Shown: positions 11,324 through 36,364 of the stretch, piece by piece
Layout: every line of letters begins with the position of its first letter
How positions within the stretch are numbered: position 1 is the first letter of the stretch
Source: Escherichia phage phiP4
Strand: one strand, 5' to 3'
Sequence record: PP993145.1
DNA length: 64,000 nucleotides
Position numbers and translations under genes: made by a program
The notes under the pieces: model-generated
Database searches by the model: none
Told to the model about the DNA's origin: nothing
The model's input: only the letters and a program-made list of their open reading frames with translations

Positions 11324-11337
11324 GTTTTATTTTTCCC

Positions 11338-11371
11338 AATAAAAAAGGCTCTGGGCAAATCACCCAGAGCC
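11338..11371 (-). terminator. Rho-independent terminator between chaperone genes and pb2
   Basis: Minus-strand hairpin GGCTCTGGG-TGATTTG-CCCAGAGCC followed by TTTTTTATTGGG. Confidence 0.65.
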
Positions 11372-11406
11372 AAGCCTCATCGTGGAACGCCCATTGGAGG
11401 AAACTT

Positions 11407-11775
11407 TTACCGTGCTCGAGATTTAGCATGTGGCTTAACGTTAGGAATCCTTCCGTTTTGCGGTTTATGCTTCTCAGCACGTTTACGTGCAGCATCTACA
11501 GCTTTAGCATCAAATATATTGATAATGTGTAGAACAAATTCTTTTTCTATAGGATCAGTAATCCCATAAATATCAAATAAAACACCTAGAGCAGCTTTAT
11601 CTTTGCCTATAAAGATAGGAAAGTCACCCGGTATGAAACAGTCAATTAGACTATTATAAATATTCATACTAATAGCTACAATAGGTGGAAAATCTTCAAG
11701 TTCAACAGGCATAGCTTTAGGATCAGGTTCTATACCCATTGACTCACAAAGTATTAAATATTGTTGTTTAGTCAT
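11407..11775 (-). CDS. Tail assembly chaperone-region protein (122 aa)
   Basis: Occupies the G/GT-equivalent position between the tube-side genes and the tape measure. Its frame is open 29 codons upstream of its ATG, overlapping the end of the preceding ORF. Confidence 0.5.
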   Translation of the reverse strand: MTKQQYLILCESMGIEPDPKAMPVELEDFPPIVAISMNIYNSLIDCFIPGDFPIFIGKDKAALGVLFDIYGITDPIEKEFVLHIINIFDAKAVDAARKRAEKHKPQNGRIPNVKPHAKSRAR

Positions 11776-11836
11776 TTTAGATGCTGAGCTTTTAATACAC
11801 TTATCAGCAAAGTCAGCAACAGCATCTAATAGTTCT

Positions 11837-12241
11837 TTACGCTTTTGAGCTACGAAAAGTGTCTAAGTGGAACACTGTCTGGTTGATCCAAGAATCAAAC
11901 GCAGCAGAGTTCTGCATAAGCATTACAGCATTATCACGGCTAAAAGGAACCTCAGTAGCAGGATCAGCATCTGTTTCAATCAGCATCAGTTTTTCAACGT
12001 CACCTACGGTCAAGCCAGTCCAGCCCTTAATCGCAGCATCAACGAAGGCTTCAATAAACTTATCATCATCCTGTACCTGAATCAAAGTACCGTTAACCCA
12101 TTCGTCACGCTTAGCAGAAGTGATAACTCGCTTAGAAGTAGCACGAGACATATAATTAAGCTCTAGCTTAAAGTTCGGCATACCTGGGTATGAAAGAGTG
12201 ACAGTACGAGTTTCTAGAGTAATATCTTTTAAGTTAATCAT
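11837..12241 (-). CDS. Tail assembly chaperone-region protein (134 aa)
   Basis: Assigned from its position upstream of the tape measure and its small acidic character. ATGA-type coupling with the upstream gene. Confidence 0.5.
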   Translation of the reverse strand: MINLKDITLETRTVTLSYPGMPNFKLELNYMSRATSKRVITSAKRDEWVNGTLIQVQDDDKFIEAFVDAAIKGWTGLTVGDVEKLMLIETDADPATEVPFSRDNAVMLMQNSAAFDSWINQTVFHLDTFRSSKA

Positions 12242-25450: not shown

Positions 25451-25551
25451 TTTGACTTTTGCCAAATTTCATAAGATTACACATGGAGGTGTGTCCAGTG
25501 GCCTCCCGGATGAGAATGAGTCTCATTACCGCCTGGTACTTAGCAAGCTAA

Positions 25552-25596
25552 TAGTCACGATATGCAATGATAACATACCGTGACTATTTCAATTTT
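25552..25596 (+). terminator. Convergent-operon hairpin/terminator between the small plus-strand ORFs and dmp
   Basis: Stem TAGTCACG...CGTGACTA (8 bp) followed by TTTCAATTTT. Confidence 0.45.
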
Positions 25597-25601
25597 AATT
25601 A

Positions 25602-26336
25602 TTACGCGACTTTTAATTTCTCAATATATTGTTGCGGGCTGCAACTATATTCTGCGCGTTCTTCCTCGGTCATACTTTCCCAACATAATTTCAATCGGTC
25701 CGCTAGGAACTGATAATCATTATCATCATCAAGCGATTCATCAATAAAGGTTCCGCCTATCAATGCCACGCCGATTGATAGAATATCATTAACGGCTTGC
25801 GCATCCAGCGTTTTAAATCCGTATGATGCCGCCGCCGCCAATACTCCTTTATGGTCATCAATCATTGTAAAATCAGCGTTCGGGTATAATTGTTTGAATA
25901 GCTCGAAATAATAACTTTTATATACTGCATCCTTGCTGTGGTATATTTCGCTAACCTTATCAGCCGTAAAATATTTGTGAAGTGTATCGCGGGAAAATAC
26001 ACGGATATTGGTATCCCCACGCCCGCGCAATCCTTGTTTGCGTAGGAAGTAATAATCTGACTTGCTCATCAGGCGAGCGGTGCAAATAATGTTTAAAGTA
26101 TTTGCGTCATTCATGCATTGGCGCATATATTCCACCAAAGGCAATAAAGTATCTTGCATTATTAAATGATGCTTGCAAGCCTCGTTTTTGTATTTATTTA
26201 AATCTAAATTCCCGTCGCTATCAAAGCAAGGCGCTACACGATGGAATGAATTAACGATAGTGCCATCAAGATCCCAAATCATGACGCGGGAAATATGCGG
26301 AAAATTACGGGTAATATTCGTTTTAACTTGATTCAT
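25602..26336 (-). CDS. dmp: 5'-deoxyribonucleotidase (pre-early), HAD-type (244 aa from ATG 26336; ORF track start 26378)
   Basis: HAD motif I VMIWDLDGTIVNS. 244 aa from the SD-preceded MNQVKT start, equal to the size I recall for T5 Dmp. Synteny with A1 and A2. Confidence 0.75.
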   Translation of the reverse strand: MNQVKTNITRNFPHISRVMIWDLDGTIVNSFHRVAPCFDSDGNLDLNKYKNEACKHHLIMQDTLLPLVEYMRQCMNDANTLNIICTARLMSKSDYYFLRKQGLRGRGDTNIRVFSRDTLHKYFTADKVSEIYHSKDAVYKSYYFELFKQLYPNADFTMIDDHKGVLAAAASYGFKTLDAQAVNDILSIGVALIGGTFIDESLDDDNDYQFLADRLKLCWESMTEEERAEYSCSPQQYIEKLKVA

Positions 26337-26416
26337 TTTGTTACGTTCTCCAATAAAGGGATCTAGTTTATCCAGCATTGCCCGCTATTTATAAGCGGGC
26401 AATAATAAATCAACTA

Positions 26417-26809
26417 TTAAAGGCCATAAGCCAACGCATCAGCGATAAAACTAATATCCTCGCCAGATACACCGGAACGAATACCAGCACAAGTATATAC
26501 TTTCGCGCTAGATAGCTGATCATCAAAGCAAGCTGGGCAAGGCGCGACAACTGCAAACGCAAGGCCAGCTTTCACGGCGTCGATGATAATCGTTTCCTGC
26601 TTCACCGTATCAACATAAACGCCCGCGGCCTTGATGTGACTACTTGCGCGGCCTTGCGTATAGGCGAAAGTCGTGATCTGTAGCGCCTCATTAAACTCAA
26701 TTAAGTCATCAACAACGTGACCGGCCTCAACGTGATACCGCTCACCATTTGAATAAACCAGAACGATTGAGGACTGAGCGCGATCGAATGGAATATTTTG
26801 CTTTTTCAT
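26417..26809 (-). CDS. Pre-early hypothetical protein (130 aa)
   Basis: ORF between A1 and dmp with E. coli-like codon usage. No motif recognised. Confidence 0.6.
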   Translation of the reverse strand: MKKQNIPFDRAQSSIVLVYSNGERYHVEAGHVVDDLIEFNEALQITTFAYTQGRASSHIKAAGVYVDTVKQETIIIDAVKAGLAFAVVAPCPACFDDQLSSAKVYTCAGIRSGVSGEDISFIADALAYGL

Positions 26810-26881
26810 ATTTATAAAACTCCAATTAATTTAATAAACTTTTATAGCGGCTATATTTCAAGCCGCTGGGGAATAATTTAA

Positions 26882-28546
26882 TTACGCGAAAAATTTGCCG
26901 TTTTTAAAGTCAATCAAAGTGCGCTGCCCGTTCGCATAGGTAATTAAATGCGTTTGCGTCCAACTTGACGCGCCAACGTTGTAACCCATATCCAGACTAC
27001 CAGCAACGCCAGCGGTATAAACGCCGCCGTAAATGCTGGCGGTGTGGGTGTGCCCCGTGTTTAATTTGCCCAATTTCTTAAACTGCTTCGGATTACCACG
27101 GCTGCCGTTAATGCCGTTGTGACCGTGTACGCCGCATTCAATGCCTGCAATTTTAAATGATTGGTCAGTGGTCAGGAAAATTGCGTTAAACTCGCAACCT
27201 GCGACGTCACGCAGCGCATAATCCAGCACGTTGAAAGTATCGTCATGATTACCGATTGCCGCGTAAATCGCAGCATTAAGGCGGTGATATAGTTCCGCAT
27301 TGGCTGGATCGTCTTTAATGTTAGCATTGCGATCATCAAGCCAACGGGATAACGCCAAATCGTGGTTTGATTCGACAATGATCGTTTGACTAAAATCGCG
27401 CTCCATTGACTCCAGCACGCGCCCGGTATCGATCAGATCATCCAGAACTTTATCACGTCCGGCTGCATACTGTTTCGCTAGGAATACACCAGAGGCGCGA
27501 TTATGATGATTGCGCGATGTAAAATCATGCACGTCATGCACAAACTGATATTTAGGCTTGAGAATATCAAGCAAGCTGTTTTCGCCAGCCCATGACGCTG
27601 CGGCGCACTCCTCATCTAATTTCTCGGCGTGTACGTCGCCATATTGCAAGCCTAAAACATGCCCCGACGTTTCAAAACATCCGGCGGGAGTGGCGCAAAT
27701 ATTCAAATCGTAAAACATGCCGCTTTCGTCCATCGTTTCAAGCTGGCGAACAAAAAATTCCCCGTCCTCGTCGAACTCAACAATCAGCGCACCGTAATTA
27801 TGCAGCGCCTCCGCTTTTTGCCCTGCTTTTTGCTGAATGTAGTTTTTGAGCGTTGCCGTTCCGGTTGAGTACATGCGGCGTACTACTTCACCTTTGAGAG
27901 CTGGCACGCTTTCAGCGGTGATTTTAGCGTGACCAATTGCCAGACCTTCCAGATTAAGCGCGGTTGCAGTTTCAGCAAATCCAGATAGCGGATAATCTGC
28001 CGTTGGCAAAACATTAATTTCAGCCATGAAAGCAAAACGGCGATTGTTTAAAAACACGTTTTTGCTGCAAATATATTTATCAAACGCGGAATCATATTTT
28101 ACACCGTCTGCGCCTTCTCCGTTCTGAAAACCGTTTTTATTATAAATATACTTAGAAACAAGCAAATCAGCGCCGATAAATTTAGCATATTGTTCAAGCG
28201 AGGCTAAAAAGTTTTTATGCGGGAAAGTATTGTTCTGAATTGATGTAATAATAAAGCGTTTGCCCTGTTTTACTTCCCACTGTTCCACCGTGCTGGAAAT
28301 AATTCCAGCCGCCTCGGGGCGCTCGTCGTTTTTAATGGCTTTTGCTACTTTCGCCGCTTTTGGTTTTGCTGGTTTATTTGCTTCCAGCCAATCACAAATC
28401 GCGGTCGAGTGTTTCGTTGTATCGTAGACCGCTTTTGATATATCGTCGCAGACTTCCAGCTTAGTAGCGCGCAGACGTTTACCGTAGAAATTAAAGTCAG
28501 CGGCCAGCTTCAGGATAACGGTTTGTTTTTCTGCGGAAATAATCAT
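26882..28546 (-). CDS. A1: Pre-early protein A1-like, metallophosphoesterase-type (554 aa from SD-preceded ATG at 28546; ORF track start 28636)
   Basis: Calcineurin-like phosphoesterase motif series (GDVH, VHDVHDF, ESNHD, GVHGHNG, TGHTHT). Size is close to T5 A1 (556 aa as I recall), and it is adjacent to A2 and dmp. Confidence 0.75.
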   Translation of the reverse strand: MIISAEKQTVILKLAADFNFYGKRLRATKLEVCDDISKAVYDTTKHSTAICDWLEANKPAKPKAAKVAKAIKNDERPEAAGIISSTVEQWEVKQGKRFIITSIQNNTFPHKNFLASLEQYAKFIGADLLVSKYIYNKNGFQNGEGADGVKYDSAFDKYICSKNVFLNNRRFAFMAEINVLPTADYPLSGFAETATALNLEGLAIGHAKITAESVPALKGEVVRRMYSTGTATLKNYIQQKAGQKAEALHNYGALIVEFDEDGEFFVRQLETMDESGMFYDLNICATPAGCFETSGHVLGLQYGDVHAEKLDEECAAASWAGENSLLDILKPKYQFVHDVHDFTSRNHHNRASGVFLAKQYAAGRDKVLDDLIDTGRVLESMERDFSQTIIVESNHDLALSRWLDDRNANIKDDPANAELYHRLNAAIYAAIGNHDDTFNVLDYALRDVAGCEFNAIFLTTDQSFKIAGIECGVHGHNGINGSRGNPKQFKKLGKLNTGHTHTASIYGGVYTAGVAGSLDMGYNVGASSWTQTHLITYANGQRTLIDFKNGKFFA

Positions 28547-28635
28547 AATAATAAACTCCATTAAAGGGATAAGGTTAATAACGGCAATATTGCCAAATAT
28601 AACGCCTCCAATAATAGGCGTTATAATTTGCAACA

Positions 28636-28833
28636 TTAATTTAAAGGCATCAGGCTAGAACTAACACCACAAACAACGGCGGCAATAAAACAAATCAGGC
28701 CCAAACGCTTCGCTAACTTAGATTTGCGTTTAAAATAATACGAATCTAAATCATTTTGAAAATATGCGAACAATAACGAGGCCGCCATAATAAATAAGCC
28801 TAGAATCAACGATTCAGTAGGGTAAAAGATCAT
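28636..28833 (-). CDS. Small two-TM membrane protein (65 aa from SD-preceded ATG 28833)
   Basis: MIFYPTESLILGLFIMAASLLFAYF...LGLICFIAAVVCGVSS, preceded by an SD (ctggagttattaaaATG). Confidence 0.5.
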   Translation of the reverse strand: MIFYPTESLILGLFIMAASLLFAYFQNDLDSYYFKRKSKLAKRLGLICFIAAVVCGVSSSLMPLN

Positions 28834-28890
28834 TTTAATAACTCCAGTTAAAGGGAAATTATAGTGGGGAATAATCCCCACTATTTAAAT

Positions 28891-29298
28891 TTATTCACCT
28901 GCGGCCTGTTTTACTTCATCGGCAACGCCTAACAACTGCGCCACGGCGTCCAGCGTTTCCAGCTTCGCGCTTTCAAGGCTTGCCAGATCATCGGCGTCCT
29001 TGATAATGCCGGAATCAATAGCGTGTTTTGCAATCACTCGCACGTAATGAGCTTTGCGGATTGAACTACCGCCGCCAACTTTGCGCGGCTTATCGCTTTT
29101 TTGATATGCTTTCGCGCTGGTCAATTTTGAGCGAACTGACACGGGAGAAGCCGCGCCAACTGCTTTCGCAATCTCTTTCAGGCCGTCGCTATTTGCGAAA
29201 TCTAAACCGTTTTCATTGATTAACTGCTGATACATGGTAACAGCTTTTTGGGTGTTTTCTTCGTTCCAAGAAAATTTTGCGGTTTTTGCGTTAGTCAT
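28891..29298 (-). CDS. A2: Pre-early DNA-binding protein A2-like (135 aa)
   Basis: Its 135 aa equals T5 A2, and it lies immediately upstream of A1. Confidence 0.7.
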   Translation of the reverse strand: MTNAKTAKFSWNEENTQKAVTMYQQLINENGLDFANSDGLKEIAKAVGAASPVSVRSKLTSAKAYQKSDKPRKVGGGSSIRKAHYVRVIAKHAIDSGIIKDADDLASLESAKLETLDAVAQLLGVADEVKQAAGE

Positions 29299-29398
29299 GG
29301 TAAAAACTCCAATTAATTTAATTTAAGGGATTAAATGATTAACTAATGTTAATCGTTATATGCCCCGAACTACTGGGGCATATAAAGTTAACACTATA

Positions 29399-29650
29399 TT
29401 ATAAAACGGCTTCCCATTTTTCGTTACGTTGAACAACCTTTACAACGTCGCCGGATTTAACGCGAACGCTAAAAACGGTTTTTCCGTTGTTACTGCGCTC
29501 ATTTTCAGCGTATACCGCGTCGATTGTATCAAACGGCATAAGCGCCGCGCCTTTAATACGTTCGGCTTTTCCGGTTAATTCATCCGTTTTAGTAACGAAA
29601 GGAATAAAAACAGATTGACCAATTTTCGGCGCGGTAATAACGTTTTGCAT
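29399..29650 (-). CDS. Pre-early hypothetical protein (83 aa)
   Basis: ORF with an SD (aactggagtttatattATG), upstream of A2. Confidence 0.55.
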   Translation of the reverse strand: MQNVITAPKIGQSVFIPFVTKTDELTGKAERIKGAALMPFDTIDAVYAENERSNNGKTVFSVRVKSGDVVKVVQRNEKWEAVL

Positions 29651-29687
29651 AATATAAACTCCAGTTTATTTGATGGATTGTTCCGCA

Positions 29688-29715
29688 TTATCTGCTAGAA
29701 AATACTAGCAGATAA
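29688..29715. promoter_or_regulatory. Perfect 11-bp inverted repeat TTATCTGCTAG-aaaata-CTAGCAGATAA (operator-like) upstream of the leftward pre-early operon
   Basis: Palindrome read directly from the sequence. It overlaps a GATAAT -10-like hexamer on the minus strand. The TAGCAGA half-site recurs at 30636 and 30697. Confidence 0.55.
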
Positions 29716-29853
29716 TAAGAAGAAATCCGCTCGCCATTATAAAATCAATTTAAGGAACTCCACGCGGGCCGCTATATCCCAGTTAGGGGGCGGGATGCAT
29801 TATGGTAAGCACCGACCGTCAAATTGTATCAAGTTATCGCTCTTATCGAACTG

Positions 29854-29876
29854 GGTACATCTTAAAGCCTATCGGC
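29854..29876. repeat. Left copy of 23-bp inverted repeat (GGTACATCTTAAAGCCTATCGGC) flanking the 67-aa ORF
   Basis: Its reverse complement matches 30120..30142 at 22 of 23 positions. Confidence 0.85.
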
Positions 29877-29883
29877 TAGGTTG

Positions 29884-30087
29884 TCAAACTATTTTTTGCA
29901 GTTTTTTATGATTTTCCTTCAGGTCGATCATAATATTTCGCCAGATCATTTCTAGTCCTTGCTGGCGGCCTTTCTTGTACTGCTCAAATCGATATTTTAC
30001 CGATCTTTGCGCTACTGTCAATAAATTTTTTGTTTTGCTATCCAGTGCCTTGCTAGGTTTACCAGTGATCAATAAAGTTTGTTTCAT
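29884..30087 (-). CDS. Small basic protein (67 aa) bracketed by a 23-bp inverted repeat
   Basis: ORF MKQTLLITGKPSKALDSKTKNLLTVAQRSVKYRFEQYKKGRQQG..., Lys/Arg/Gln-rich. Function unknown. Confidence 0.45.
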   Translation of the reverse strand: MKQTLLITGKPSKALDSKTKNLLTVAQRSVKYRFEQYKKGRQQGLEMIWRNIMIDLKENHKKLQKIV

Positions 30088-30119
30088 ATCGTCGATTCCT
30101 TATAATGAATAAGTTTACC

Positions 30120-30142
30120 GCCGATAGGCTTTAAGATATACC
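30120..30142. repeat. Right copy of 23-bp inverted repeat flanking the 67-aa ORF
   Basis: GCCGATAGGCTTTAAGATATACC, with one mismatch to the reverse complement of 29854..29876. Confidence 0.85.
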
Positions 30143-30635
30143 CAATTTTTAAAGAGCGCGGCGGTAAACTCCCCGCCGTGTAGTTCGTCATTGCCGCCCT
30201 ACGAGATAAATAATAACAAACAACGAAAAAGGCGCAACCTTATATTTGTAAAGAAATGTAAAGACAAACGCCACCGGACACCGTGCGGCGACCTGGGCGC
30301 GGCGCATTAAAATTAAAAGAAACGGGCGCGCGAATACCACAAAACACAGCAGATAGGCAAGTAATTTTTTCATTTATATTTGCTTTGCCCTACTTGACAA
30401 AATCTAAAAAGCTCGTGGCAGCGATAAACGGCTTATCCCCTTATGATGGGATGGCTAAAAACTTTATTGCGTTCTGGGGCGTTTTAGGCCGCCTATTTTC
30501 GACTTAACAAATCATTAACAAACGCAAAATTGAAAAATAGTTGGAAAAGGTCTTGACTTTTAAAAATCAAGATCAAATGACTTATTTTATAAAATAAATT
30601 AATTGACTTTTATTTGTTAGTATGCATCGGAAAGA

Positions 30636-30714
30636 TAGCAGACTATTAATCACTAGAAGGATGATCATGCTGGTGGATTGTAACGGCCTGAATTATTAGC
30701 AGACTATTAATCAC
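30636..30714 (+). repeat. Two 18-bp direct repeats TAGCAGACTATTAATCAC (30636-30653 and 30697-30714)
   Basis: Identical 18-mers with starts 61 bp apart. They share the TAGCAGA core with the palindrome at 29688. Confidence 0.8.
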
Positions 30715-30776
30715 GGAAAAACTCATTAGCCAACTAACTATTTCATGATATATAATATACTTATAAATTAATGAGA

Positions 30777-30857
30777 AATAATAACTATAAGAAATCATCA
30801 CCATTATAATAATAACTATAAGAAATCATCACCATTATAATAATAACTATAAGAAAC
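30777..30857 (+). repeat. 31-bp tandem repeat AATAATAACTATAAGAAATCATCACCATTAT x about 2.6
   Basis: Two exact copies plus a 19-nt partial third copy, read directly. Confidence 0.85.
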
Positions 30858-30866
30858 TATCGGCAT

Positions 30867-30998
30867 AAGTGAGAACCACTATCATTTAAGTTATCCACAA
30901 TGTTATCCACAGCACAAAATAATTTGACACGATAGGCGGCGATATAAGGGCTTATCCACAGACTTATCCACAGGTTATCCTACTGTATAAATATACAG
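30867..30998. repeat. Left arm of large imperfect inverted repeat (pairs with 34010..34143)
   Basis: AAGTGAGAACCACT...TTATCCACA...TTGACA...CTTATCCACAGACTTATCCACAGGTTATCCTACTGTATAAATATACAG aligns along its whole length with the reverse complement of the right arm. Confidence 0.75.
30891..30983 (+). promoter_or_regulatory. DnaA-box cluster: 4 perfect TTATCCACA (30891, 30903, 30952, 30964) plus TTATCCTAC (30975)
   Basis: Exact matches to the 9-mer DnaA box consensus TTATCCACA, read directly. Confidence 0.8.
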
Positions 30999-31263
30999 GG
31001 TAAAAAGGCAGTGTTAACGACTGCAATCAATTTTAAGCGGCCTAAAACGCTTTCTAACGAGCTAAACGCTGTGGGGTAATATTAAAGTAAAGACCCAACG
31101 CGGTGCCCTGGTGGCTTCGCCGTGTTTTGCTCTTTACCGTACCGCTGCGCGGTTATCATAAAAATAGGCGTTAGGCAAGGAAAATAAAAAAGTAAAATAA
31201 TCTTTGCCTATGCTAGAAAATTACCCTTATCATTTACTCACCGATTAACGAGAGGGCCAACAA

Positions 31264-32256
31264 ATGAGGCTATATAAACCAGATAACGCAACCGTCTTAA
31301 AAGGTGCGCTGCGTAACCTGCTGGATGGTAGCAGAACAACCAGCATCCGGCATTTTGTTTTCAATATTGAAACTATTCATCAAAACTTTTTTGATGAATA
31401 TGACGCTTATAATATGAATAGTTTTCTACCGTTATATAAACAAGGGGCAACGCTTGTTTTGTATAATCAGGATTATCAATTGCTCACTAGTCGGGGGCCG
31501 GATACTGATTTCATAATCGTAAAAGGCAACACAGTAAAAGCCTATGATACTGGGGCGGGCTTAGAAGTTTTTTCAATAGAAAACTATGAGGCTAATGATA
31601 ATGATCTTTATGACGTAGAAAATTTTCTTGATTCATTTTGGCGTTATTTATCAGTTGGCTGGAATCGGTCGGATTCTGATGGGTATCGTTTTGCGGCTAT
31701 AATGGCCTTCGATGATAACGGTAATTTTTTGCTACCGTCGGAACTATGCCCGTATGTTTATAATGATCTGATACAGGAGGCCGGTTTTACTTTCTGGAAA
31801 GATGAGGATCAGATTATTAACAGTATAGAAAAACATGCTGTAAATTCTAACACTCAAAGCGTTATCACTCAAACTACTGAAAATAAAGGAAAAAACACTA
31901 TGACCAAGATCGCTAACATCGTTGCCGCCAATAAGTCTGCCGTTGTAAACGCTGCAAAACTGGAAGCGGGTAAAATTGCACTAACTCAAATCACGAAAGT
32001 AGCGGCTAAAAAAGCACCGTTCATGATCAAAGGTTATATCGATACGCCGATTGGTCGCGTAGTAATCGCTAACCTGCTGAGTGTAGCGGTTGACCAGTAC
32101 GCCCCGAGTAACCAGAAAGCGAAAGCGGTAGCGGGGGCGGCTATGGAAGCGGCAATGTTGGAAATGGTGCAAAGTTTTAACATCGCTGAGATGATCGATG
32201 AAATGGTAAAAGGTATCGATATTTCTACTTTTACCAATAACACCGAAAACGAGTAA
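31264..32256 (+). CDS. Hypothetical protein (330 aa), possibly two in-frame products (internal SD+ATG at 31900)
   Basis: Long ORF. The N-terminal ~210 aa are Asp/Asn/Phe/Tyr-rich, and the C-terminal ~118 aa are Ala/Lys-rich and amphipathic, preceded by AAGGAAAAAACACTATG. Confidence 0.6.
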   Translation: MRLYKPDNATVLKGALRNLLDGSRTTSIRHFVFNIETIHQNFFDEYDAYNMNSFLPLYKQGATLVLYNQDYQLLTSRGPDTDFIIVKGNTVKAYDTGAGLEVFSIENYEANDNDLYDVENFLDSFWRYLSVGWNRSDSDGYRFAAIMAFDDNGNFLLPSELCPYVYNDLIQEAGFTFWKDEDQIINSIEKHAVNSNTQSVITQTTENKGKNTMTKIANIVAANKSAVVNAAKLEAGKIALTQITKVAAKKAPFMIKGYIDTPIGRVVIANLLSVAVDQYAPSNQKAKAVAGAAMEAAMLEMVQSFNIAEMIDEMVKGIDISTFTNNTENE

Positions 32257-32283
32257 TAACTAGCCCATTGTAAAGTTTTGTAA

Positions 32284-32311
32284 AGGCCGCCTTTTATGGT
32301 GGCCTTTTTTG
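32284..32311 (+). terminator. Rho-independent terminator after the 330-aa ORF
   Basis: GGCCGCC-TTTTAT-GGTGGCC followed by TTTTTT. Confidence 0.7.
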
Positions 32312-32376
32312 TTATAATGCCTTTACACCGTTTGAGGACGGTTGAAAATTTTCCCAAAAAATTTTGGAGGCTTAAA

Positions 32377-32607
32377 ATGGTTGCTTTTTCTTCTTCTGAC
32401 GCTCTTTTCACTGGAAAAGGCTGGGTATCAAATCGCTGGATTATTCAGGAAATGGTGCAAGAGTACGGCATTGCTAAAACTTATACTACCATTCAGGCGC
32501 TTTATGATAATGATCAAATCGATCAGCAAACGGCGGGCTTTTTACTGGATACCCTGAAGGCGGAACACTGTACCAAAAAACAAGCCGCTAAAATTGTTTT
32601 AATGTAA
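32377..32607 (+). CDS. Hypothetical protein (76 aa from SD-preceded ATG 32377; ORF track start 32296)
   Basis: TTGGAGGCTTAAAATG ribosome-binding context. The ORF-track N-terminal extension overlaps the terminator. Confidence 0.55.
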   Translation: MVAFSSSDALFTGKGWVSNRWIIQEMVQEYGIAKTYTTIQALYDNDQIDQQTAGFLLDTLKAEHCTKKQAAKIVLM

Positions 32608-32656
32608 TTAATAACGGGGCGAAAGTATCGCCCCACTAACTAGGGGAGTATCACAA

Positions 32657-32839
32657 ATGATTATTTTTCGAGCTTTTTTAGCGGGTATCTTGGGAGCTAT
32701 TTTGACCCTTTTCGCCACCGCTTACGGTATTCAGGATTCCTATTGCGGTTTGGTAAACACAAAACCTATGGTTACTATAGGCGCTGGTATCGCTGTATTT
32801 TCTTATCTGCTGGGCTGCATGAATAGTAAAGGAGAATAA
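32657..32839 (+). CDS. Small two-TM membrane protein (60 aa)
   Basis: Hydrophobic segments FRAFLAGILGAILTLFATAYGI and VTIGAGIAVFSYLLGCM. SD taggggagtatcacaaATG. Confidence 0.55.
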   Translation: MIIFRAFLAGILGAILTLFATAYGIQDSYCGLVNTKPMVTIGAGIAVFSYLLGCMNSKGE

Positions 32840-32841
32840 AA

Positions 32842-33054
32842 ATGATCCGCAACGTTTCTCTTGCACGTTCGAAAGGTTTTAAGCTGGTGGACGCTAACAC
32901 GTTCGAGCGTCCAGATTGCAAGATCGAATATGTAGCACGTAATAAAAATGCCTTTCGTGTTACCGAGAAAAAATTTGATAAGCGCGGCAACGTGATCCTT
33001 GAAACGGTTAGGCACTTTGCCACCTTTTACGCTGCATTTCGTGGGGTACTATGA
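32842..33054 (+). CDS. Hypothetical basic protein (70 aa)
   Basis: SD aaaggagaataaaaATG. ATGA overlap with the next ORF. Confidence 0.55.
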   Translation: MIRNVSLARSKGFKLVDANTFERPDCKIEYVARNKNAFRVTEKKFDKRGNVILETVRHFATFYAAFRGVL

Positions 33055-33194
33055 AAAGCGTTATTGTTGTTATCCTTGCAATGGCTGGCGGTTTTATCGC
33101 CACCTTATTTAAGAATGATCCCACTTCGTTGGGTATCTTTATGCTTTTATCGGGCTATCTGATCGGGAGGTTGTCAAATGATAGCGCAAATTAA
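33051..33194 (+). CDS. Small membrane protein (47 aa)
   Basis: Hand-translated as MKSVIVVILAMAGGFIATLFKNDPTSLGIFMLLSGYLIGRLSNDSAN, translationally coupled. Confidence 0.45.
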   Translation: MKSVIVVILAMAGGFIATLFKNDPTSLGIFMLLSGYLIGRLSNDSAN

Positions 33195-33300
33195 AACGGC
33201 TTTTCGTTTTTGGGGCGTCCTGCCTTCAATTGGTTTTATTCTGATAATCATTAGTCAGCTAATGATTATCGTTGGCGTTATCTGGGAGCTATGCAAATGA
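33178..33300 (+). CDS. Small membrane protein (40 aa)
   Basis: MIAQIKTAFRFWGVLPSIGFILIIISQLMIIVGVIWELCK, preceded by an SD (GGGAGG). Confidence 0.45.
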   Translation: MIAQIKTAFRFWGVLPSIGFILIIISQLMIIVGVIWELCK

Positions 33301-33641
33301 TCATTTACGAGGGCAATCGCTTTGTTGCTAATTGCCGCCCGGCATTGTTAGCAAACTATTTAAACCAGCTTTCACCAGCTTATAAGGGCGTTATTAATAT
33401 TTACGAGGGCAAGGCGCATTATAAAATCAATGCGGTCGTTGCCCGTGAACTAGCGTTTCAATTTTTAACCTTTGCATCTTGCGACGTTCAGGTTATGGGT
33501 GAGGCGTTAATTGCAGAAAATGAAGACGATTTTATTAATATTTTCCGTAAGGTATGCACCGAGCGCCTGATAATCAAAGGCGCATATATTCAATCCACGG
33601 CTGATAGTATTGAAACAGCGTTTCGAAAGGTGGCGCAATGA
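33291..33641 (+). CDS. Hypothetical protein (116 aa)
   Basis: ORF coupled to its flanking small ORFs. No motif recognised. Confidence 0.55.
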   Translation: MQMIIYEGNRFVANCRPALLANYLNQLSPAYKGVINIYEGKAHYKINAVVARELAFQFLTFASCDVQVMGEALIAENEDDFINIFRKVCTERLIIKGAYIQSTADSIETAFRKVAQ

Positions 33642-33751
33642 AACGATGGTTTAATCACTGGTACAAGCGGTTTTTAGTACGCCGTCGCAAGTCTAGGCAT
33701 CAAGATGAGTGGCGGGAGTGGGCAAAGCGTAACGGTTGCCCACTAATATAA
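33638..33751 (+). CDS. Small Arg/Trp-rich protein (37 aa)
   Basis: MKRWFNHWYKRFLVRRRKSRHQDEWREWAKRNGCPLI, with an ATGA overlap with the upstream ORF. Confidence 0.35.
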   Translation: MKRWFNHWYKRFLVRRRKSRHQDEWREWAKRNGCPLI

Positions 33752-33790
33752 TAATCACGGGGCGCAACTATCAGGGAGTGCCCCCAATTT

Positions 33791-33813
33791 TCAAATGATA
33801 ATCATTCTCATTT
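33791..33813. promoter_or_regulatory. Fur-box-like palindrome TCAAATGATAATCATTCTCATTT
   Basis: TCAAATGATAATCATTCTC matches the 19-bp Fur consensus GATAATGATAATCATTATC at 15 of 19 positions (hand alignment). Confidence 0.5.
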
Positions 33814-34009
33814 GACCGCGCCCGCGATGGTTAGCCTGCTAATGGTTCGGGTGTTACGTGTCGCCTTGTGTGATCGTTAGCTCGCTAACTAATTTTCAAG
33901 CCTCCTCCAATTTTGCCCTTGTTTTAGTATCCCCACCAAAATTAAACGCGTTAGAATGCGTTTGAGAGCGTTTTAACGCTATATTAGAATTATTCGCTGC
34001 GTAGGAATA

Positions 34010-34143
34010 CTGTATATTTATCCAGTAGGATAAGCTGTGGATAAGTCTGTTAATAACGCCTCAAAATGGCTAGGGTTTTGTCAAGTCAAATCGTGCTGTT
34101 AATAAGTCTGTGGATAACTTAAATAACAGTGTTTCTCACTTCC
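34010..34143. repeat. Right arm of large imperfect inverted repeat (pairs with 30867..30998)
   Basis: Its reverse complement reads CAGACTTATCCACAGCTTATCCTACTGGATAAATATACAG...GAAGTGAGAAACACT..., colinear with the left arm. Confidence 0.75.
34025..34117 (-). promoter_or_regulatory. DnaA-box cluster on opposite strand: TGTGGATAA at 34036 and 34109, GTAGGATAA at 34025, degenerate TGTTAATAA at 34048 and 34097
   Basis: Two exact reverse complements of TTATCCACA plus three variants, mirroring the left arm. Confidence 0.75.
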
Positions 34144-34149
34144 GTTCTT

Positions 34150-34367
34150 AAATGAGAATCATTATCATTTGTATTTCACTATCTAACTAATAATCATTCC
34201 ACTATCTAACTAATAATCATTCCACTTTCTAAATGAGAATCATTCCGCTTTTTAAATGAGAATCATTTCACTTTTTAAATGAGATTGATTCTCATTTCAC
34301 TTTCTAAATGCGAATTATTATCATTCTCATTCCGCTTTTTAAATGAGAATGATTCTTATTATCATTC
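34150..34367. repeat. Degenerate ~23-bp tandem array (6 copies) of AAATGAGAATCATT(N)C(N)CTTTTT containing Fur-box-like palindromes
   Basis: Copies start at 34150, 34231, 34254, 34277, 34306 and 34341. The first (TTAAATGAGAATCATTATC) matches the Fur consensus at 15 of 19 positions. 34277-34297 is the palindrome AAATGAGA-TTGAT-TCTCATTT. Confidence 0.7.
34177..34222 (+). repeat. 23-bp exact tandem duplication CACTATCTAACTAATAATCATTC x2
   Basis: Read directly from the sequence. Confidence 0.85.
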
Positions 34368-34374
34368 GTATTTA

Positions 34375-34400
34375 GCGCAGAGCAATTGCTCTGCGCTTTT
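34375..34400 (+). terminator. Perfect 22-bp palindrome GCGCAGAGCAATTGCTCTGCGC followed by TTTT
   Basis: Perfect hairpin with a T-run. It separates the AT-rich Fur-like array from the iteron array. Confidence 0.55.
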
Positions 34401-35000
34401 GTGCAAATCCGACATTGCTCCACGGGTGTTACGTGCGGGCGTGTATGTGCGAATCCGACAATTTTTGGTAGTGTGCAAATCCGACCCGAAAAATTTTTAT
34501 AGTGTGCAAATCCGACAATGAATTTTCCTAAAAACTCCAGCAATCCGATGCTGCGCATCAATCCTGTGGAATTAGCTAGAGTATGTGCAAATCCGACATG
34601 GGTTTATTTGTGCGAATCCGACAAGATTTTTGTGACTTCGATTGGAGGGTGTGTGATTGTGTGGGTTTGGGGAGAAGTTGAGAGAGCGAGAGAAAATAAG
34701 AGGAGAAGCTAGAGGGGCAGCAGTGGTGGCGTGCAACGCCTGATTTGCTGCGTTTTTGGGGAGAGTTGAAAAGATTTGGGTTAATTTGAGATTAGTGGAG
34801 ATAAAGTAAAATTTTATTAGCAAAATGGGGCAAAATAGCTTGACAAGTGAAAATTTCTGTGGCTCTAAAAACTCAGGCAATCACGGGCCTTCGGCCCGAA
34901 ATAATGCTGCCATTTTCAGGAGATTATATGTTCCTAAAAACTTAGGCAATTGTGCAAATCCGACCATAAATTTCTAGAAACACAATGTGCAAATCCGACA
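34401..35000 (+). repeat. Iteron array: 8 same-orientation copies of GTGC(A/G)AATCCGAC(A/C)
   Basis: Copies at 34401, 34447, 34473, 34504, 34585, 34610, 34952 and 34987. They are interspersed with CCTAAAAACT..GGCAAT (34527, 34865, 34932) and TTTCTAGAAA-type motifs, and there is no credible ORF. Confidence 0.85.
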
Positions 35001-35043
35001 GTAATTTCTGGAAATGTGTTTTCAAAAAATGTCTCCTAGAAAT

Positions 35044-35114
35044 AACCGCCCTCCCCATAACCGCCCTGTATTAAACCGCCTAGTATATGTTCCTAGAAAC
35101 TTGGGAGAACCGCC
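35044..35114 (+). repeat. Four direct AACCGCC heptamers (35044, 35059, 35074, 35108)
   Basis: Read directly. The first three are spaced 15 bp apart. Confidence 0.6.
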
Positions 35115-35249
35115 CACTAGAAGCGTGAGATCTCGTGAGTATTTCGTGAGAACTCTGGAGTTTCTAGGAAAGTGTTGTGCCATCCTAGCAGATGAGCGGC
35201 AACCGGTGTATCATCTTGAATGTAAATTATGTGGTCAAAAGTTTTACCT

Positions 35250-35431
35250 TTAATTTAAGTATAAGATCCCCCAAGATTGGAAGAGATGCTCCACCCCTGG
35301 GATACGAATTGCGTGAGATGGTACAAAACTTCTTAAGATTTCCCTAGTCCTTCGACAAGCTACGGGGGAAATAGAAGTTTCCCATCCACCATCCGTATCC
35401 GGGTGGATCTCTTTATTCTATGTTATTTCAT
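35250..35431 (-). ncRNA. Candidate non-coding transcript/leader driven by the promoter at 35438..35466, reading into the repeat region
   Basis: No ORF longer than 10 codons lies downstream of a consensus promoter. It contains hairpins ATCCACC...GGTGGAT and GGGAAA...TTTCCC. Confidence 0.3.
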
Positions 35432-35437
35432 AGAGTT

Positions 35438-35466
35438 ATTATAACATGCAGAAATCATAACGTCAA
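35438..35466 (-). promoter_or_regulatory. Early-type sigma70 promoter (-35 TTGACG, 17 bp, -10 TATAAT) pointing toward the terminal-repeat block
   Basis: The reverse complement reads TTGACGttatgatttctgcatgtTATAAT. Confidence 0.55.
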
Positions 35467-35473
35467 GTAGAGT

Positions 35474-36364
35474 TTATTCATCGAACATGAGATTTCCTTT
35501 CATCCCCATCTCCGCATACTCCATGAGTTCTTTGATGGATCTCACGGGGTAATCTACTTTACTAAAGTTATCATAGATCTTACATGAACTCTCATACAAC
35601 TCGTTAGGTATCTGCAATTTGTTATCTGTTAGCTTCTCATAACGTGCAGAAGAATTTGTACCGTCAAACAGAACTGCGATAACTGCGGCGATTTGTTTAG
35701 TAAGATCATCTGCTCCTAGAATTATTCTATTAATAGCAATCGTTACTTCATGCTTAGGTTTAGCAGGTGGAAGGATAGGTTTGAGATCCTTAGGTAAAGG
35801 TTCTGTTCCTAGGAATCCTTCTTTTGTGCGGAACCAATAATTATCTAGATCAGATATCGTCTTAGACTTATTCCAAATAGTGAAGCAGGGTTTATTTCCT
35901 TCACGATCTCTGTATTCACGAATTGGAAGGTAATGATCAGGGAATGAATTGAGTGCATCATGCATCGGTGAGCCTGTCTTTTTGAATGACAAACCATACA
36001 ACTCATTATAATTCATAACTTCATCTTCGTAAACATGGAAATCTTTATATGCTGGAAGATTAAACCATTCCTGAAGTGAATGAACTGCAAAACGTTGTGC
36101 CCAAGCATGCATCACTAGAACTCTGTATTCTTTTACTTCATCTTTTGGAGAAGTACCTTTAGCTGTTCTAGCTGAACGAATACAGAACATCTCAACAACA
36201 CGTTTCTCATTTAAAGAGAGTTCAGAATAACAACGTTCATGGCAACCTTCTAGCATTTCTAGAAGTTCACGTAGTTTCTCTACATCGACCGGTGGAAAAG
36301 GTCTTTCTTCAACTGCGAATTTACCAGTTACACCTTTTGGTTTTCTATTACTATAAAATCCCAT
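35474..36364 (-). CDS. Hypothetical early protein (296 aa)
   Basis: Long ORF, ATGA-coupled to the upstream gene. No motif recognised. Confidence 0.7.
   Translation of the reverse strand: MGFYSNRKPKGVTGKFAVEERPFPPVDVEKLRELLEMLEGCHERCYSELSLNEKRVVEMFCIRSARTAKGTSPKDEVKEYRVLVMHAWAQRFAVHSLQEWFNLPAYKDFHVYEDEVMNYNELYGLSFKKTGSPMHDALNSFPDHYLPIREYRDREGNKPCFTIWNKSKTISDLDNYWFRTKEGFLGTEPLPKDLKPILPPAKPKHEVTIAINRIILGADDLTKQIAAVIAVLFDGTNSSARYEKLTDNKLQIPNELYESSCKIYDNFSKVDYPVRSIKELMEYAEMGMKGNLMFDE

What the first reader, a model, noticed from the sequence alone, without database searches (positions are those of the whole stretch)
30867..34143. A 3-kb plus-strand operon of tiny proteins is bracketed by ~130-bp inverted-repeat arms, each loaded with DnaA boxes
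Seen in sequence: the left arm (30867-30998) carries four perfect TTATCCACA boxes and one TTATCCTAC. The right arm (34010-34143) is its imperfect reverse complement, with two perfect boxes, one GTAGGATAA and two decayed copies (TGTTAATAA). Both arms also carry a TTGAC(A/T) hexamer and a CTGTATA..TATACAG palindrome at the inner end. The arms enclose nine ORFs (31264-33751), most under 80 aa and several of them membrane proteins. Established knowledge: as I recall, DnaA boxes and large palindromes were reported around the T5 injection stop signal, so part of this is probably known. Inference: the cassette-like geometry (IR arms plus a compositionally distinct cargo) suggests the arms delimit a functional unit. 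It could be a DNA-protein clamp for the two-step injection pause, or an invertible or exchangeable cassette.
Basis: partly seen in the sequence, partly recalled or inferred. Interest (0 to 1): 0.5.

Follow-up and report, generated by a model that had tools for sequence, protein, structure and literature searches.

The report
Known T5 DnaA-box inverted repeats
The two DnaA-box-rich inverted repeats around this T5-like phage's small-gene operon are real and strongly conserved, but they were already described in the T5 literature; their proposed role in pausing DNA injection is still untested, and they are not a working genetic switch.

Summary
Arms 30867-30998 and 34010-34143 are 76.5% identical inverted repeats. 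They hold all six perfect TTATCCACA boxes of the 64-kb window (0.65 expected by chance). The window is a T5-like phage. The arms are the published IRC-spacer-IRD and IRD'-spacer-IRC' repeats of the first-step-transfer (FST) terminal repeat. The cargo is the rightward pre-early operon (T5.011-T5.015 equivalents). Davison (bioRxiv 10.1101/866236) already described eight paired DnaA boxes in 25 phages and proposed a membrane-DnaA injection-stop clamp. That proposal has not been tested experimentally.

New here:
- The right arm is more conserved (93%) than the essential A2 gene (87%).
- Arms cluster by side in 56/56 cases, so there is no gene conversion between them.
- Cargo length varies from 1.6 to 4.1 kb and its gene content is mosaic.
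- None of 535 relatives carries an inverted junction, and the cargo encodes no recombinase, so this is not a programmed switch.
- In Klebsiella phage Sugarland and Pectobacterium phage My1 the homologous operon is inverted between collinear flanks. This is an ancient inversion with breakpoints in the arm zone.
- The palindrome at the inner end of each arm is a near-consensus LexA (SOS) box. It is conserved across five genera, and I found no prior report of it.

Verdict: already known; modest residual interest.

The parts
30867..30998 (+). Left arm, equivalent to T5 'IRC-spacer-IRD' (Repeat Region 2). It lies between the divergent pre-early operons.
   Evidence: 76.5% inverted match to the right arm. 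Orthologous to T5 AY543070 6098-6228 at 81% and to SPC35 5393-5524 at 94%. Mean pairwise identity among 28 genomes is 0.867.
30891..30911 (+). Outer pair of perfect DnaA boxes (30891-30899 and 30903-30911), 3 bp apart.
   Evidence: Box 1 is TTATCCACA in 23/30 genomes and box 2 in 16/30.
30924..30929 (+). TTGACA hexamer in the spacer between the box pairs.
   Evidence: Conserved in 28/30 left arms and 28/30 right arms. No -10 element lies at 16-18 bp, so it is probably not a -35 element (read from the sequence).
30952..30983 (+). Inner DnaA-box triplet: perfect boxes at 30952-30960 and 30964-30972, then TTATCCTAC at 30975-30983.
   Evidence: Box 4 is TTATCCACA in 25/30 genomes and box 5 is TTATCCTAC in 24/30.
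30981..31000 (.). LexA (SOS-box)-like palindrome TACTGTATAAATATACAGGG at the inner end of the left arm.
   Evidence: 3 mismatches to TACTGTATATATATACAGTA, with the CTGT-N8-ACAG core intact. Second-best site in the window on a rough LexA PWM, at 23.0 bits. Conserved in 17/30 genomes exactly, with the core kept in most others.
31264..33751 (+). Cargo: the rightward pre-early operon. 31264-32256 is T5.011 (DUF7566). 32377-32607 is T5.012. 32657-32839 is T5.013. 32842-33054 is AY543070 T5.014, in PHROG 4227 ('endonuclease nicking abasic sites generated by Ung'). 33051-33194 and 33178-33300 are small hydrophobic ORFs absent from T5. 33291-33641 is AY543070 T5.015. 33638-33751 is a 37-aa ORF.
   Evidence: Presence or absence across 30 genomes is. 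T5 genes 011-017 are dispensable in the laboratory.
34008..34027 (.). LexA (SOS-box)-like palindrome TACTGTATATTTATCCAGTA at the inner end of the right arm.
   Evidence: 2 mismatches to the consensus. Top-scoring LexA-type site in the window at 25.4 bits. In relatives this site is TACTGTATAAATATACAGTA or its reverse complement in 24/30 genomes.
34010..34143 (-). Right arm, equivalent to T5 IRD'-spacer-IRC' at the start of Repeat Region 3 and the annotated injection stop signal.
   Evidence: Orthologous to T5 AY543070 9411-9544 at 92% and to SPC35 8786-8919 at 98%. The T5 iss is annotated at 9140-10149. Mean pairwise identity is 0.932, above the A2 coding sequence at 0.870.
34025..34056 (-). 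Inner box triplet of the right arm: TTATCCTAC (34025-34033), perfect TTATCCACA (34036-34044) and TTATTAACA (34048-34056).
34079..34084 (-). TTGACA hexamer of the right arm.
34097..34117 (-). Outer box pair of the right arm: TTATTAACA (34097-34105) and perfect TTATCCACA (34109-34117).

Best explanation
The two arms are the previously described IRC-spacer-IRD and IRD'-spacer-IRC' repeats of the terminal-repeat (first-step-transfer, FST) DNA of T5-like phages.

Each arm is a cis-acting protein-binding platform built from four elements:
- two pairs of DnaA boxes in fixed register;
- a fifth, degenerate box;
- a conserved TTGACA-containing spacer;
- a LexA-operator-like palindrome at the inner end.

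Shown: the sequence architecture, strong purifying selection on it, its family-wide conservation, and its position. The right arm lies just upstream of where T5 injection pauses.

[quoted passage not shown] They would build a nucleoprotein complex that contributes to the pause or to control of second-step transfer, as in Davison's model. On this view the right arm is the principal element and the left arm is an auxiliary, dispensable copy.

The inverted-repeat geometry is not a programmed switch. It has, however, served as the substrate or boundary for at least one ancient inversion of the self-contained pre-early operon, and the space between the arms tolerates gene gain and loss.
For: Identity with the published element.

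Statistics: six perfect DnaA boxes lie only in the arms, against 0.65 expected.

Selection:
- Right arm 0.932 and left arm 0.867 mean pairwise identity, against 0.870 for the A2 coding sequence and 0.69-0.78 for the outer flanking non-coding DNA.
- Every box position is retained as a consensus or near-consensus box in 30 genomes.
- Box spacing is identical in both arms.

Family-wide composite: 'palindrome plus adjacent inward-pointing DnaA boxes' occurs at the right end of the FST region in Tequintavirus, Sugarlandvirus, Myunavirus, Novosibvirus and a Vibrio T5-like phage.

Position: the right arm lies inside the annotated T5 iss. Davison places the FST shear point about 150 bp beyond it.

Left arm auxiliary:
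- It is less conserved.
- Its DnaA-box array is absent in Proteus phage Stubb.
- It is truncated in Sugarland.
- The viable T5 mutant deleted from hegG to 017 should lack it.

Not a switch.

Ancient inversion.
Against: No experiment shows that DnaA, or anything else, binds these sites or that they affect injection. Papers from 2023 and 2026 still describe the role as only proposed.

The whole ~130 bp is conserved, not just the boxes. This includes a 24-nt outer segment and the spacer. Factors other than DnaA must therefore be involved, and the boxes could be sites for a phage protein that merely resemble DnaA boxes.

T5 itself has only three perfect boxes.

The left arm lies about 3 kb inside the injected DNA, so it cannot itself be the stop point. 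Its probable dispensability shows that the paired geometry is not required in the laboratory.

I did not see the exact end points of the T5 hegG-017 deletion.
Confidence: 0.55

Rival explanations
1. Programmed invertible or exchangeable cassette. The arms would be recombination sites that flip or swap the operon within phage populations.
For: The operon is flanked by 130-bp inverted repeats. It is a self-contained unit with its own experimentally characterised promoter upstream of gene 011. It sits in the opposite orientation in Sugarlandvirus and Myunavirus. Cargo content is mosaic.
Against: None of the eight cargo proteins hits a recombinase or invertase family. 0 of 535 records carry the inverted junction, against 176 of 539 for the natural junction. 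All 28 Markadamsvirinae genomes have every cargo gene on the same strand. The arms are only about 76% identical and cluster by side in 56/56 cases, so they are not recombining.
Confidence: 0.03
2. Transcriptional control elements. Host DnaA and/or LexA bound at the arms would repress, insulate or block transcription of the pre-early operons. Examples would be stopping read-through towards DNA not yet injected, or tying pre-early expression to host state.
For: The left arm lies between the divergent pre-early operons, and the right arm follows the rightward operon. The palindromes are the two best LexA-type operators in the window. Weak promoter-like matches overlap or adjoin the palindromes: 31017->30990 on the minus strand and 33962-33990 on the plus strand.
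Against: The promoters annotated or characterised in T5 (5938-6012 minus strand, 6411-6489 plus strand) lie outside the left arm at 6098-6228. The promoter-like matches are no more numerous than in shuffles by a wide margin (25 against 17.3 +/- 3.9), and they are not at homologous positions in the two arms. A terminator-like hairpin precedes the right arm (by eye, about 33759-33784). The operon's orientation relative to the arms is reversed in Sugarland and My1 without loss of the arms.
Confidence: 0.2
3. The conserved motifs are operators for phage-encoded proteins. The candidates are the essential DNA-binding protein A2, alone or with A1. Resemblance to host DnaA and LexA sites would be incidental or mimicry, and the arms would be where A1/A2 act to restart transfer.
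For: A2 and A1 are conserved throughout the family, as are the palindromes. Only two or three copies occur per genome region, and all are in the FST DNA. The whole arm is conserved, not only the boxes. Davison also proposes that A1/A2 act on palindromes in this region.
Against: The matches to the host consensus sequences are very close: six perfect 9-mers, and 20-mers with 1-3 mismatches. Variation among relatives stays within known functional DnaA-box variants such as TTATTCACA, TTTTACACA and TTTTGCACA.
Confidence: 0.15
4. A DnaA-dependent replication origin, or a DnaA sink that perturbs host replication initiation.
For: Two oppositely oriented arrays of DnaA boxes loosely recall oriC.
Against: T5 origins map near the middle of the genome, and the replication genes are not expressed during the first-step-transfer period (Davison). 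No AT-rich 13-mer unwinding element was identified. A single injected copy offers only about 10 sites.
Confidence: 0.05

Closest known systems
T5 IRC-spacer-IRD / IRD'-spacer-IRC' inverted repeats with DnaA boxes (per Davison's citations: the 1987 iss-region sequencing paper, which from my own memory is Heusterspreute et al. 1987; Wang et al. 2005; Davison 2015; Davison 2020 bioRxiv 10.1101/866236)
   Same: Same element by sequence orthology (81% left, 92% right, to T5). It has the same position in the terminal repeat, the same ~131-134 bp length, the same paired boxes 3 bp apart, and a variable distance between the arms.
   Different: This phage has more perfect boxes than T5 (6 against 3). 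Three points are added here. The opposite-direction genes in Sugarland and My1 are a true inversion of a homologous operon, not the replacement that Davison described. Selection on the arms is quantified. The inner palindrome matches the LexA operator.
E. coli DnaA-box arrays (oriC, datA, DARS, dnaA promoter)
   Same: Clusters of consensus TTATCCACA boxes interspersed with weaker variants in fixed register. The two arrays have opposite polarity (established knowledge of oriC).
   Different: The arrays are 3 kb apart rather than about 100 bp. No unwinding element is present, and this is not the phage origin. There is no DNA homology to any E. coli genome.
LexA operators (SOS boxes) of Gammaproteobacteria
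   Same: 20-nt palindromes with the CTGT-N8-ACAG core and an AT-rich centre. On a rough PWM they score as high as or higher than genuine SOS boxes recalled from the literature.
   Different: They lie in a virulent phage and do not overlap any characterised promoter. Binding is untested. I found no published link between T5-like phages and LexA.
Phage invertible segments (Mu G, P1 C; Gin/Cin/Hin systems)
   Same: A phage gene cassette bracketed by inverted repeats, found in both orientations across relatives.
   Different: No invertase gene is present. The repeats are about 130 bp and only 76% identical, rather than short crossover sites. Orientation is fixed within each lineage.

Membership tests
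T5-type FST inverted repeats (IRC-spacer-IRD / IRD'-spacer-IRC') | A ~131-bp inverted-repeat pair inside the long terminal repeat of a T5-like phage | tested here: met
   132 and 134 bp, 76.5% identical. The terminal repeat maps to about 25480-34860 of the window by alignment to SPC35.
T5-type FST inverted repeats (IRC-spacer-IRD / IRD'-spacer-IRC') | Left copy between the divergent pre-early operons; right copy at the start of the non-coding iss / Repeat Region 3 | tested here: met
   T5 arms lie at 6098-6228 and 9411-9544, and the iss is annotated at 9140-10149.
T5-type FST inverted repeats (IRC-spacer-IRD / IRD'-spacer-IRC') | Four DnaA or DnaA* boxes per arm, in pairs separated by 3 bp | tested here: met
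   A fifth, degenerate box (TTATCCTAC) lies 2 bp further in.
T5-type FST inverted repeats (IRC-spacer-IRD / IRD'-spacer-IRC') | Sequence orthology to the T5 arms | tested here: met
   81% (left) and 92% (right) to T5; 94% and 98% to SPC35.
T5-type FST inverted repeats (IRC-spacer-IRD / IRD'-spacer-IRC') | Constant 52-bp 'spacer' between the component repeats | tested here: inconclusive
   Davison's IRC/IRD boundaries appear only in a figure I could not see. What I can show is an invariant 61-bp start-to-start spacing between the two box pairs in both arms (families D13 and D15).
Functional DnaA-binding array | Clustered matches to TTWTNCACA beyond chance | tested here: met
   6 perfect boxes against 0.65 expected, all in 266 bp.
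Functional DnaA-binding array | DnaA protein binds the site | not testable with these tools
   No published experiment either.
LexA operator (SOS box) | Palindromic CTGT-N8-ACAG core with an AT-rich centre and flanking TA...TA | tested here: met
   The left core is perfect. The right site in the window has CTGT-N8-CCAG. Relatives carry the perfect palindrome in 24/30 genomes.
LexA operator (SOS box) | Overlaps a promoter that it represses | tested here: inconclusive
   Only weak consensus matches lie nearby. The characterised T5 promoters lie elsewhere.
LexA operator (SOS box) | LexA binds the site, and expression responds to RecA-dependent cleavage | not testable with these tools
   -
Site-specific invertible DNA switch | Recombinase or invertase encoded in or next to the segment | tested here: not met
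   No such family among the eight cargo proteins in PHROGs or Pfam. The flanking genes are A2-operon genes and early genes.
Site-specific invertible DNA switch | Both orientations present among close relatives or within populations | tested here: not met
   0/535 records with the inverted junction against 176/539 with the natural one. Read-level data could not be tested.
Composite transposon / IS-bounded cassette | Transposase gene and target-site duplication outside the terminal inverted repeats | tested here: not met
   No transposase family hit. No matching direct repeat abuts the outer ends on inspection. The arms are absent from E. coli genomes and plasmids.

The most novel reading that the evidence does not exclude
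The non-coding part of the first-injected DNA of T5-like phages would be a deliberate collection of high-affinity operators for several host global DNA-binding proteins:
- DnaA-box arrays;
- a near-perfect LexA box at the inner end of each arm;
- Fur-box-like palindromes immediately beyond the right arm.

Together they would recruit pre-existing host proteins to build the injection-stop complex without any new protein synthesis. The LexA-like palindrome plus adjacent DnaA boxes would be the ancient core, since it is present in five genera including Vibrio and Proteus phages. The same repeats would have mediated inversion of the pre-early operon between genera.
Probability: 0.25. Interest if true: 0.65.

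Novelty: already known. Interest (0 to 1): 0.33.

Why it matters
How T5 stops DNA entry after 8% of its genome and restarts minutes later is an old open question. The arms are the main candidate cis element, yet nobody has tested them.

The comparative results here sharpen what to test. The right arm is under stronger constraint than an essential gene. The left arm and the paired geometry are probably dispensable. The most widely conserved sub-element is a LexA-operator-like palindrome next to the DnaA boxes, and the published DnaA-clamp model does not take it into account.

The results also correct one published reading: in Sugarland- and My1-type phages the operon was inverted, not replaced.

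Tried and rejected
1. Rfam scan of 30300-35500 at E<=1 gave only two sub-threshold chance hits, so no structured RNA was found.

2. A promoter in the arm spacer. TTGACA is conserved, but the nearest -10-like hexamer (TATAAG) sits at 13-bp spacing in the left arm and there is none in the right arm. Rejected as a promoter.

3. Borrowed host or plasmid module. The arms have no match in 5,426 E. coli genomes or in PLSDB plasmids.

4. Localising the Sugarland inversion breakpoints inside the arms from left-like versus right-like character. At this divergence the arm interiors are too alike to discriminate. Only the inner flanks (swapped) and the outer flanks (collinear) are informative.

5. LexA cleavage as the timer that releases the pause. 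I rejected this on background knowledge only: T5 and T1 plate on recA1 laboratory strains. That is from memory and was not tested here.

6. Davison 2015 (PMC4743489) could not be read. The 1987 and 2005 primary papers are not in the library, so an older mention of LexA-like or Fur-like sites cannot be excluded.

7. Composition as evidence for a foreign cargo was rejected.

Full report
**What is there.** The sequence is as described. Arms 30867-30998 and 34010-34143 align as inverted repeats at 76.5% over 132 nt (one search reports the pair as 63 nt at 79% and 52 nt at 88%). The left arm has perfect TTATCCACA boxes at 30891, 30903, 30952 and 30964, plus TTATCCTAC at 30975. The right arm, on the minus strand, has perfect boxes at 34036 and 34109, TTATCCTAC at 34025, and TTATTAACA at 34048 and 34097. 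These six perfect boxes are the only ones in the 64 kb, where dinucleotide shuffles give 0.65 on average. Box spacing is identical in the two arms (12, 49, 12 and 11 nt start to start). Both arms carry TTGACA in the spacer and a palindrome at the inner end.

Two details of the finding need correction. There are eight ORFs between the arms, not nine. The cargo is not compositionally distinct: its GC matches the neighbouring leftward operon, only the GC skew follows the coding strand, and the AT-rich parts are the arms and flanking repeats.

**What genome and locus this is.** The region matches 533 phage records, all T5-like. The closest are Salmonella phages SE11 and SE8 (94.6%) and SPC35 (92.7%). 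In SPC35 and T5 the region lies inside the annotated left terminal repeat, 'first-step-transfer DNA; enters host cell first'. By alignment to SPC35 the terminal repeat occupies roughly 25480-34860 of the window.

The genes between the arms are the rightward pre-early operon:
- 31264-32256 is T5.011 (DUF7566).
- 32377-32607 is T5.012.
- 32657-32839 is T5.013.
- 32842-33054 is AY543070 T5.014. It falls in PHROG 4227, which is annotated as the Ung-dependent abasic-site nickase. Gene numbering differs between T5 records, so I cite coordinates.
- 33291-33641 is AY543070 T5.015.
- Two small hydrophobic ORFs (33051-33194 and 33178-33300) and a 37-aa ORF (33638-33751) complete the operon.

The left arm lies between the divergent pre-early operons. 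The right arm lies at the start of the region annotated in T5 as the injection stop signal.

**It is already known.** Davison's preprint 'Phage T5 two-step injection' (10.1101/866236) describes a 131-bp IRC-spacer-IRD repeat in Repeat Region 2 and its inverted partner IRD'-spacer-IRC' in Repeat Region 3. It reports eight DnaA or DnaA* boxes 'always in pairs separated by 3 bp', conserved in 25 T5-like phages, with a highly variable distance between the two repeats. It credits the first DnaA-box observation to a 1987 paper and the repeat nomenclature to Wang et al. 2005. It proposes that membrane-bound DnaA holds the DNA at these boxes and that both repeats may form a 'knot'. [quoted passage not shown]

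**Conservation and selection.** I collected loci anchored on T5.011 and, to avoid selecting on the cargo, on the A2 gene outside the cassette. That gave thirty distinct genomes with both arms.
- Among the 28 Markadamsvirinae genomes, mean pairwise identity is 0.932 for the right arm and 0.867 for the left.
- For comparison it is 0.870 for the essential A2 coding sequence, 0.883 for two conserved cargo genes, and 0.69-0.78 for the outer flanking non-coding DNA, which is often not alignable.
- Every box position is kept as a consensus or near-consensus box. TTGACA is kept in 28/30 genomes in each arm.
- The whole arm is conserved, including a 24-nt outer segment and side-specific spacers. DnaA is therefore unlikely to be the only ligand.

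**Test of the 'invertible or exchangeable cassette' idea.**
- Exchange is supported. The inner distance between the arms ranges from 1590 to 4060 bp and the gene content is mosaic. The 70-aa and 116-aa genes are present in 28/30 genomes, T5.011 in 27/30, and other genes in 6-25 of 30. T5.016 and T5.017 are absent from this window, while two small ORFs here are absent from T5.
- A working switch is not supported. No cargo protein hits a recombinase family. A synthetic inverted-junction query is covered by 0 of 535 phage records, against 176 of 539 for the natural junction. The arms cluster by side in 56 of 56 nearest-neighbour tests, and intra-genome left-right identity (0.761) equals inter-genome left-right identity (0.758), so they have not been recombining.

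**An ancient inversion.** In Klebsiella phage Sugarland (L070) the left flank is collinear with the window. A2 is 65% identical, and the three small genes next to it are also homologous. The iss-type repeats on the right are collinear too. The operon between the arms, however, lies on the other strand and in reversed order. The T5.011 homologue is 36% identical (E 1.6e-43), with 69.6% DNA identity over 313 bp on the opposite strand. The C-terminal part of the 116-aa protein matches a 115-aa Sugarland protein (E 5.6e-5).

The 110-nt inner flanks travel with the cargo. The window's right inner flank best matches Sugarland's left inner flank (81/98), and the reverse holds for the other flank. The outer flanks stay put. 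The breakpoints therefore lie within the arm and palindrome zone, although the arm interiors are too alike to place them more precisely.

Pectobacterium phage My1 has the same inverted arrangement and is collinear with Sugarland. Proteus phage Stubb has the T5-like orientation. [quoted passage not shown] The protein and DNA homology shown here indicates inversion of a homologous transcription unit instead.

**A side observation that may matter.** The 'CTGTATA..TATACAG palindrome' is a near-consensus LexA operator.
- The left site, TACTGTATAAATATACAGGG, and the right site, TACTGTATATTTATCCAGTA, match TACTGTATATATATACAGTA with 3 and 2 mismatches. About 0.01 such sites are expected in the window.
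- I built a rough PWM from E. coli SOS boxes recalled from the literature, so it is only approximate. On it these are the two best sites in the window (25.4 and 23.0 bits). The third best scores 16.8, and the recalled genuine sites score 12.5-23.8.
- In relatives the right-arm site is the perfect palindrome TACTGTATAAATATACAGTA or its reverse complement in 24/30 genomes.
- A pair of such palindromes flanks the operon in Sugarland, My1 and Stubb, and three occur in a Vibrio T5-like phage. At the right-hand site they are always next to inward-pointing DnaA boxes. In Stubb the left palindrome persists although the left DnaA array is gone.
- Davison's text mentions neither LexA nor SOS. Four literature searches found no paper linking T5-like phages with LexA sites. 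Older papers that I could not read may mention it.

**Mechanism.** The shown facts are the architecture, the selection on it, the family-wide conservation and the position. The rest is inference.

My best reading, at confidence about 0.55, is that the arms are protein-loading platforms on the first DNA to enter the cell. The right arm would be the principal element of the injection-pause or restart control region, and the left arm an auxiliary copy. The left arm is less conserved, is truncated or lacks its DnaA-box array in some genera, and lies inside the 'hegG to 017' block deleted in a viable T5 mutant. I did not see the deletion end points.

The rivals are transcriptional control by DnaA or LexA (0.2), operators for phage A2/A1 rather than host proteins (0.15), an origin or DnaA sink (0.05), and a programmed switch (0.03).

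**Verdict.** The finding is a correct rediscovery of a published feature, and its main interpretation repeats a published, untested model. The residual value lies in three points: the inversion re-interpretation, the quantified constraint on the arms, and the LexA-like (and possibly Fur-like) operators. These suggest concrete experiments.

Noticed in passing
window 30981-31000 and 34008-34027; also L070 (Sugarland), L074 (My1), L073 (Stubb), L075 (Vibrio D308): The palindromes at the inner ends of the arms are near-consensus LexA (SOS) boxes. They are the two top LexA-type sites in the window. They are conserved as a flanking pair in five genera, and Davison's model does not mention them.
   Followed up: yes
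window 33791-33809, 34148-34166, 34310-34328, 34345-34363; also 25512, 25706, 25712, 33258: Palindromes of the AAATGAGAATCATTCTCATTT family match the 19-nt Fur-box consensus GATAATGATAATCATTATC at 15-16 of 19 positions. Eight sites are seen against 0.55 expected in shuffles. All lie inside the terminal-repeat part of the window, and several sit immediately outside the right arm, where injection is thought to stop. Davison's text does not mention Fur.
   Followed up: partly
L070 (Klebsiella phage Sugarland) 4123-8268; L074 (My1) 7741-11914: The pre-early operon containing the T5.011 homologue is inverted relative to T5 and the window, between collinear flanks. It had been described in the literature as a replacement by unrelated genes.
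   Followed up: yes
window 30999-31100 and 33900-34009: Weak inverted-repeat homology continues about 100 nt inward of the arms (score 20 against 5.4 +/- 2.2 for shuffles). The ancestral repeat was therefore probably about 230 bp.
   Followed up: partly
right-arm palindrome across 30 genomes: The asymmetric centre of the palindrome occurs in two forms, TATAAATATA and TATATTTATA, which are exact reverse complements (15 against 9 genomes in the right arm). This is either a two-base flip kept by selection or small inversions through the palindrome.
   Followed up: no
window 34399-35000: Eight copies of a 16-nt direct repeat (TGTGCAAATCCGACA-like) lie near the inferred end of the terminal repeat. 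They probably correspond to Davison's DRD repeats of T5 Repeat Region 3 (family D4).
   Followed up: no
window 30777-30869 and 34150-34287; 30636-30714: Tandem repeats abut the outer end of each arm: 3 x 31 nt on the left and 5 x 23 nt on the right. A further 18-nt repeat pair (TAGCAGACTATTAATCAC) is spaced 61 bp apart, the same 61-bp spacing as the DnaA-box pairs inside both arms (families D1, D7, D13, D15, D16).
   Followed up: no
window ~25480 and ~34860: The terminal repeat appears only once in the window, with unrelated sequence to its left. The source record is therefore probably an assembly with the two terminal repeats collapsed and the genome start permuted, as in SE11.
   Followed up: partly
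window 31264-32256: Only the C-terminal ~130 residues of the T5.011-like protein are conserved in My1 and Stubb, where they sit in a 397-aa protein (PHROG 16673 matches residues 183-329). This suggests a two-domain protein with a variable N-terminal half.
   Followed up: no
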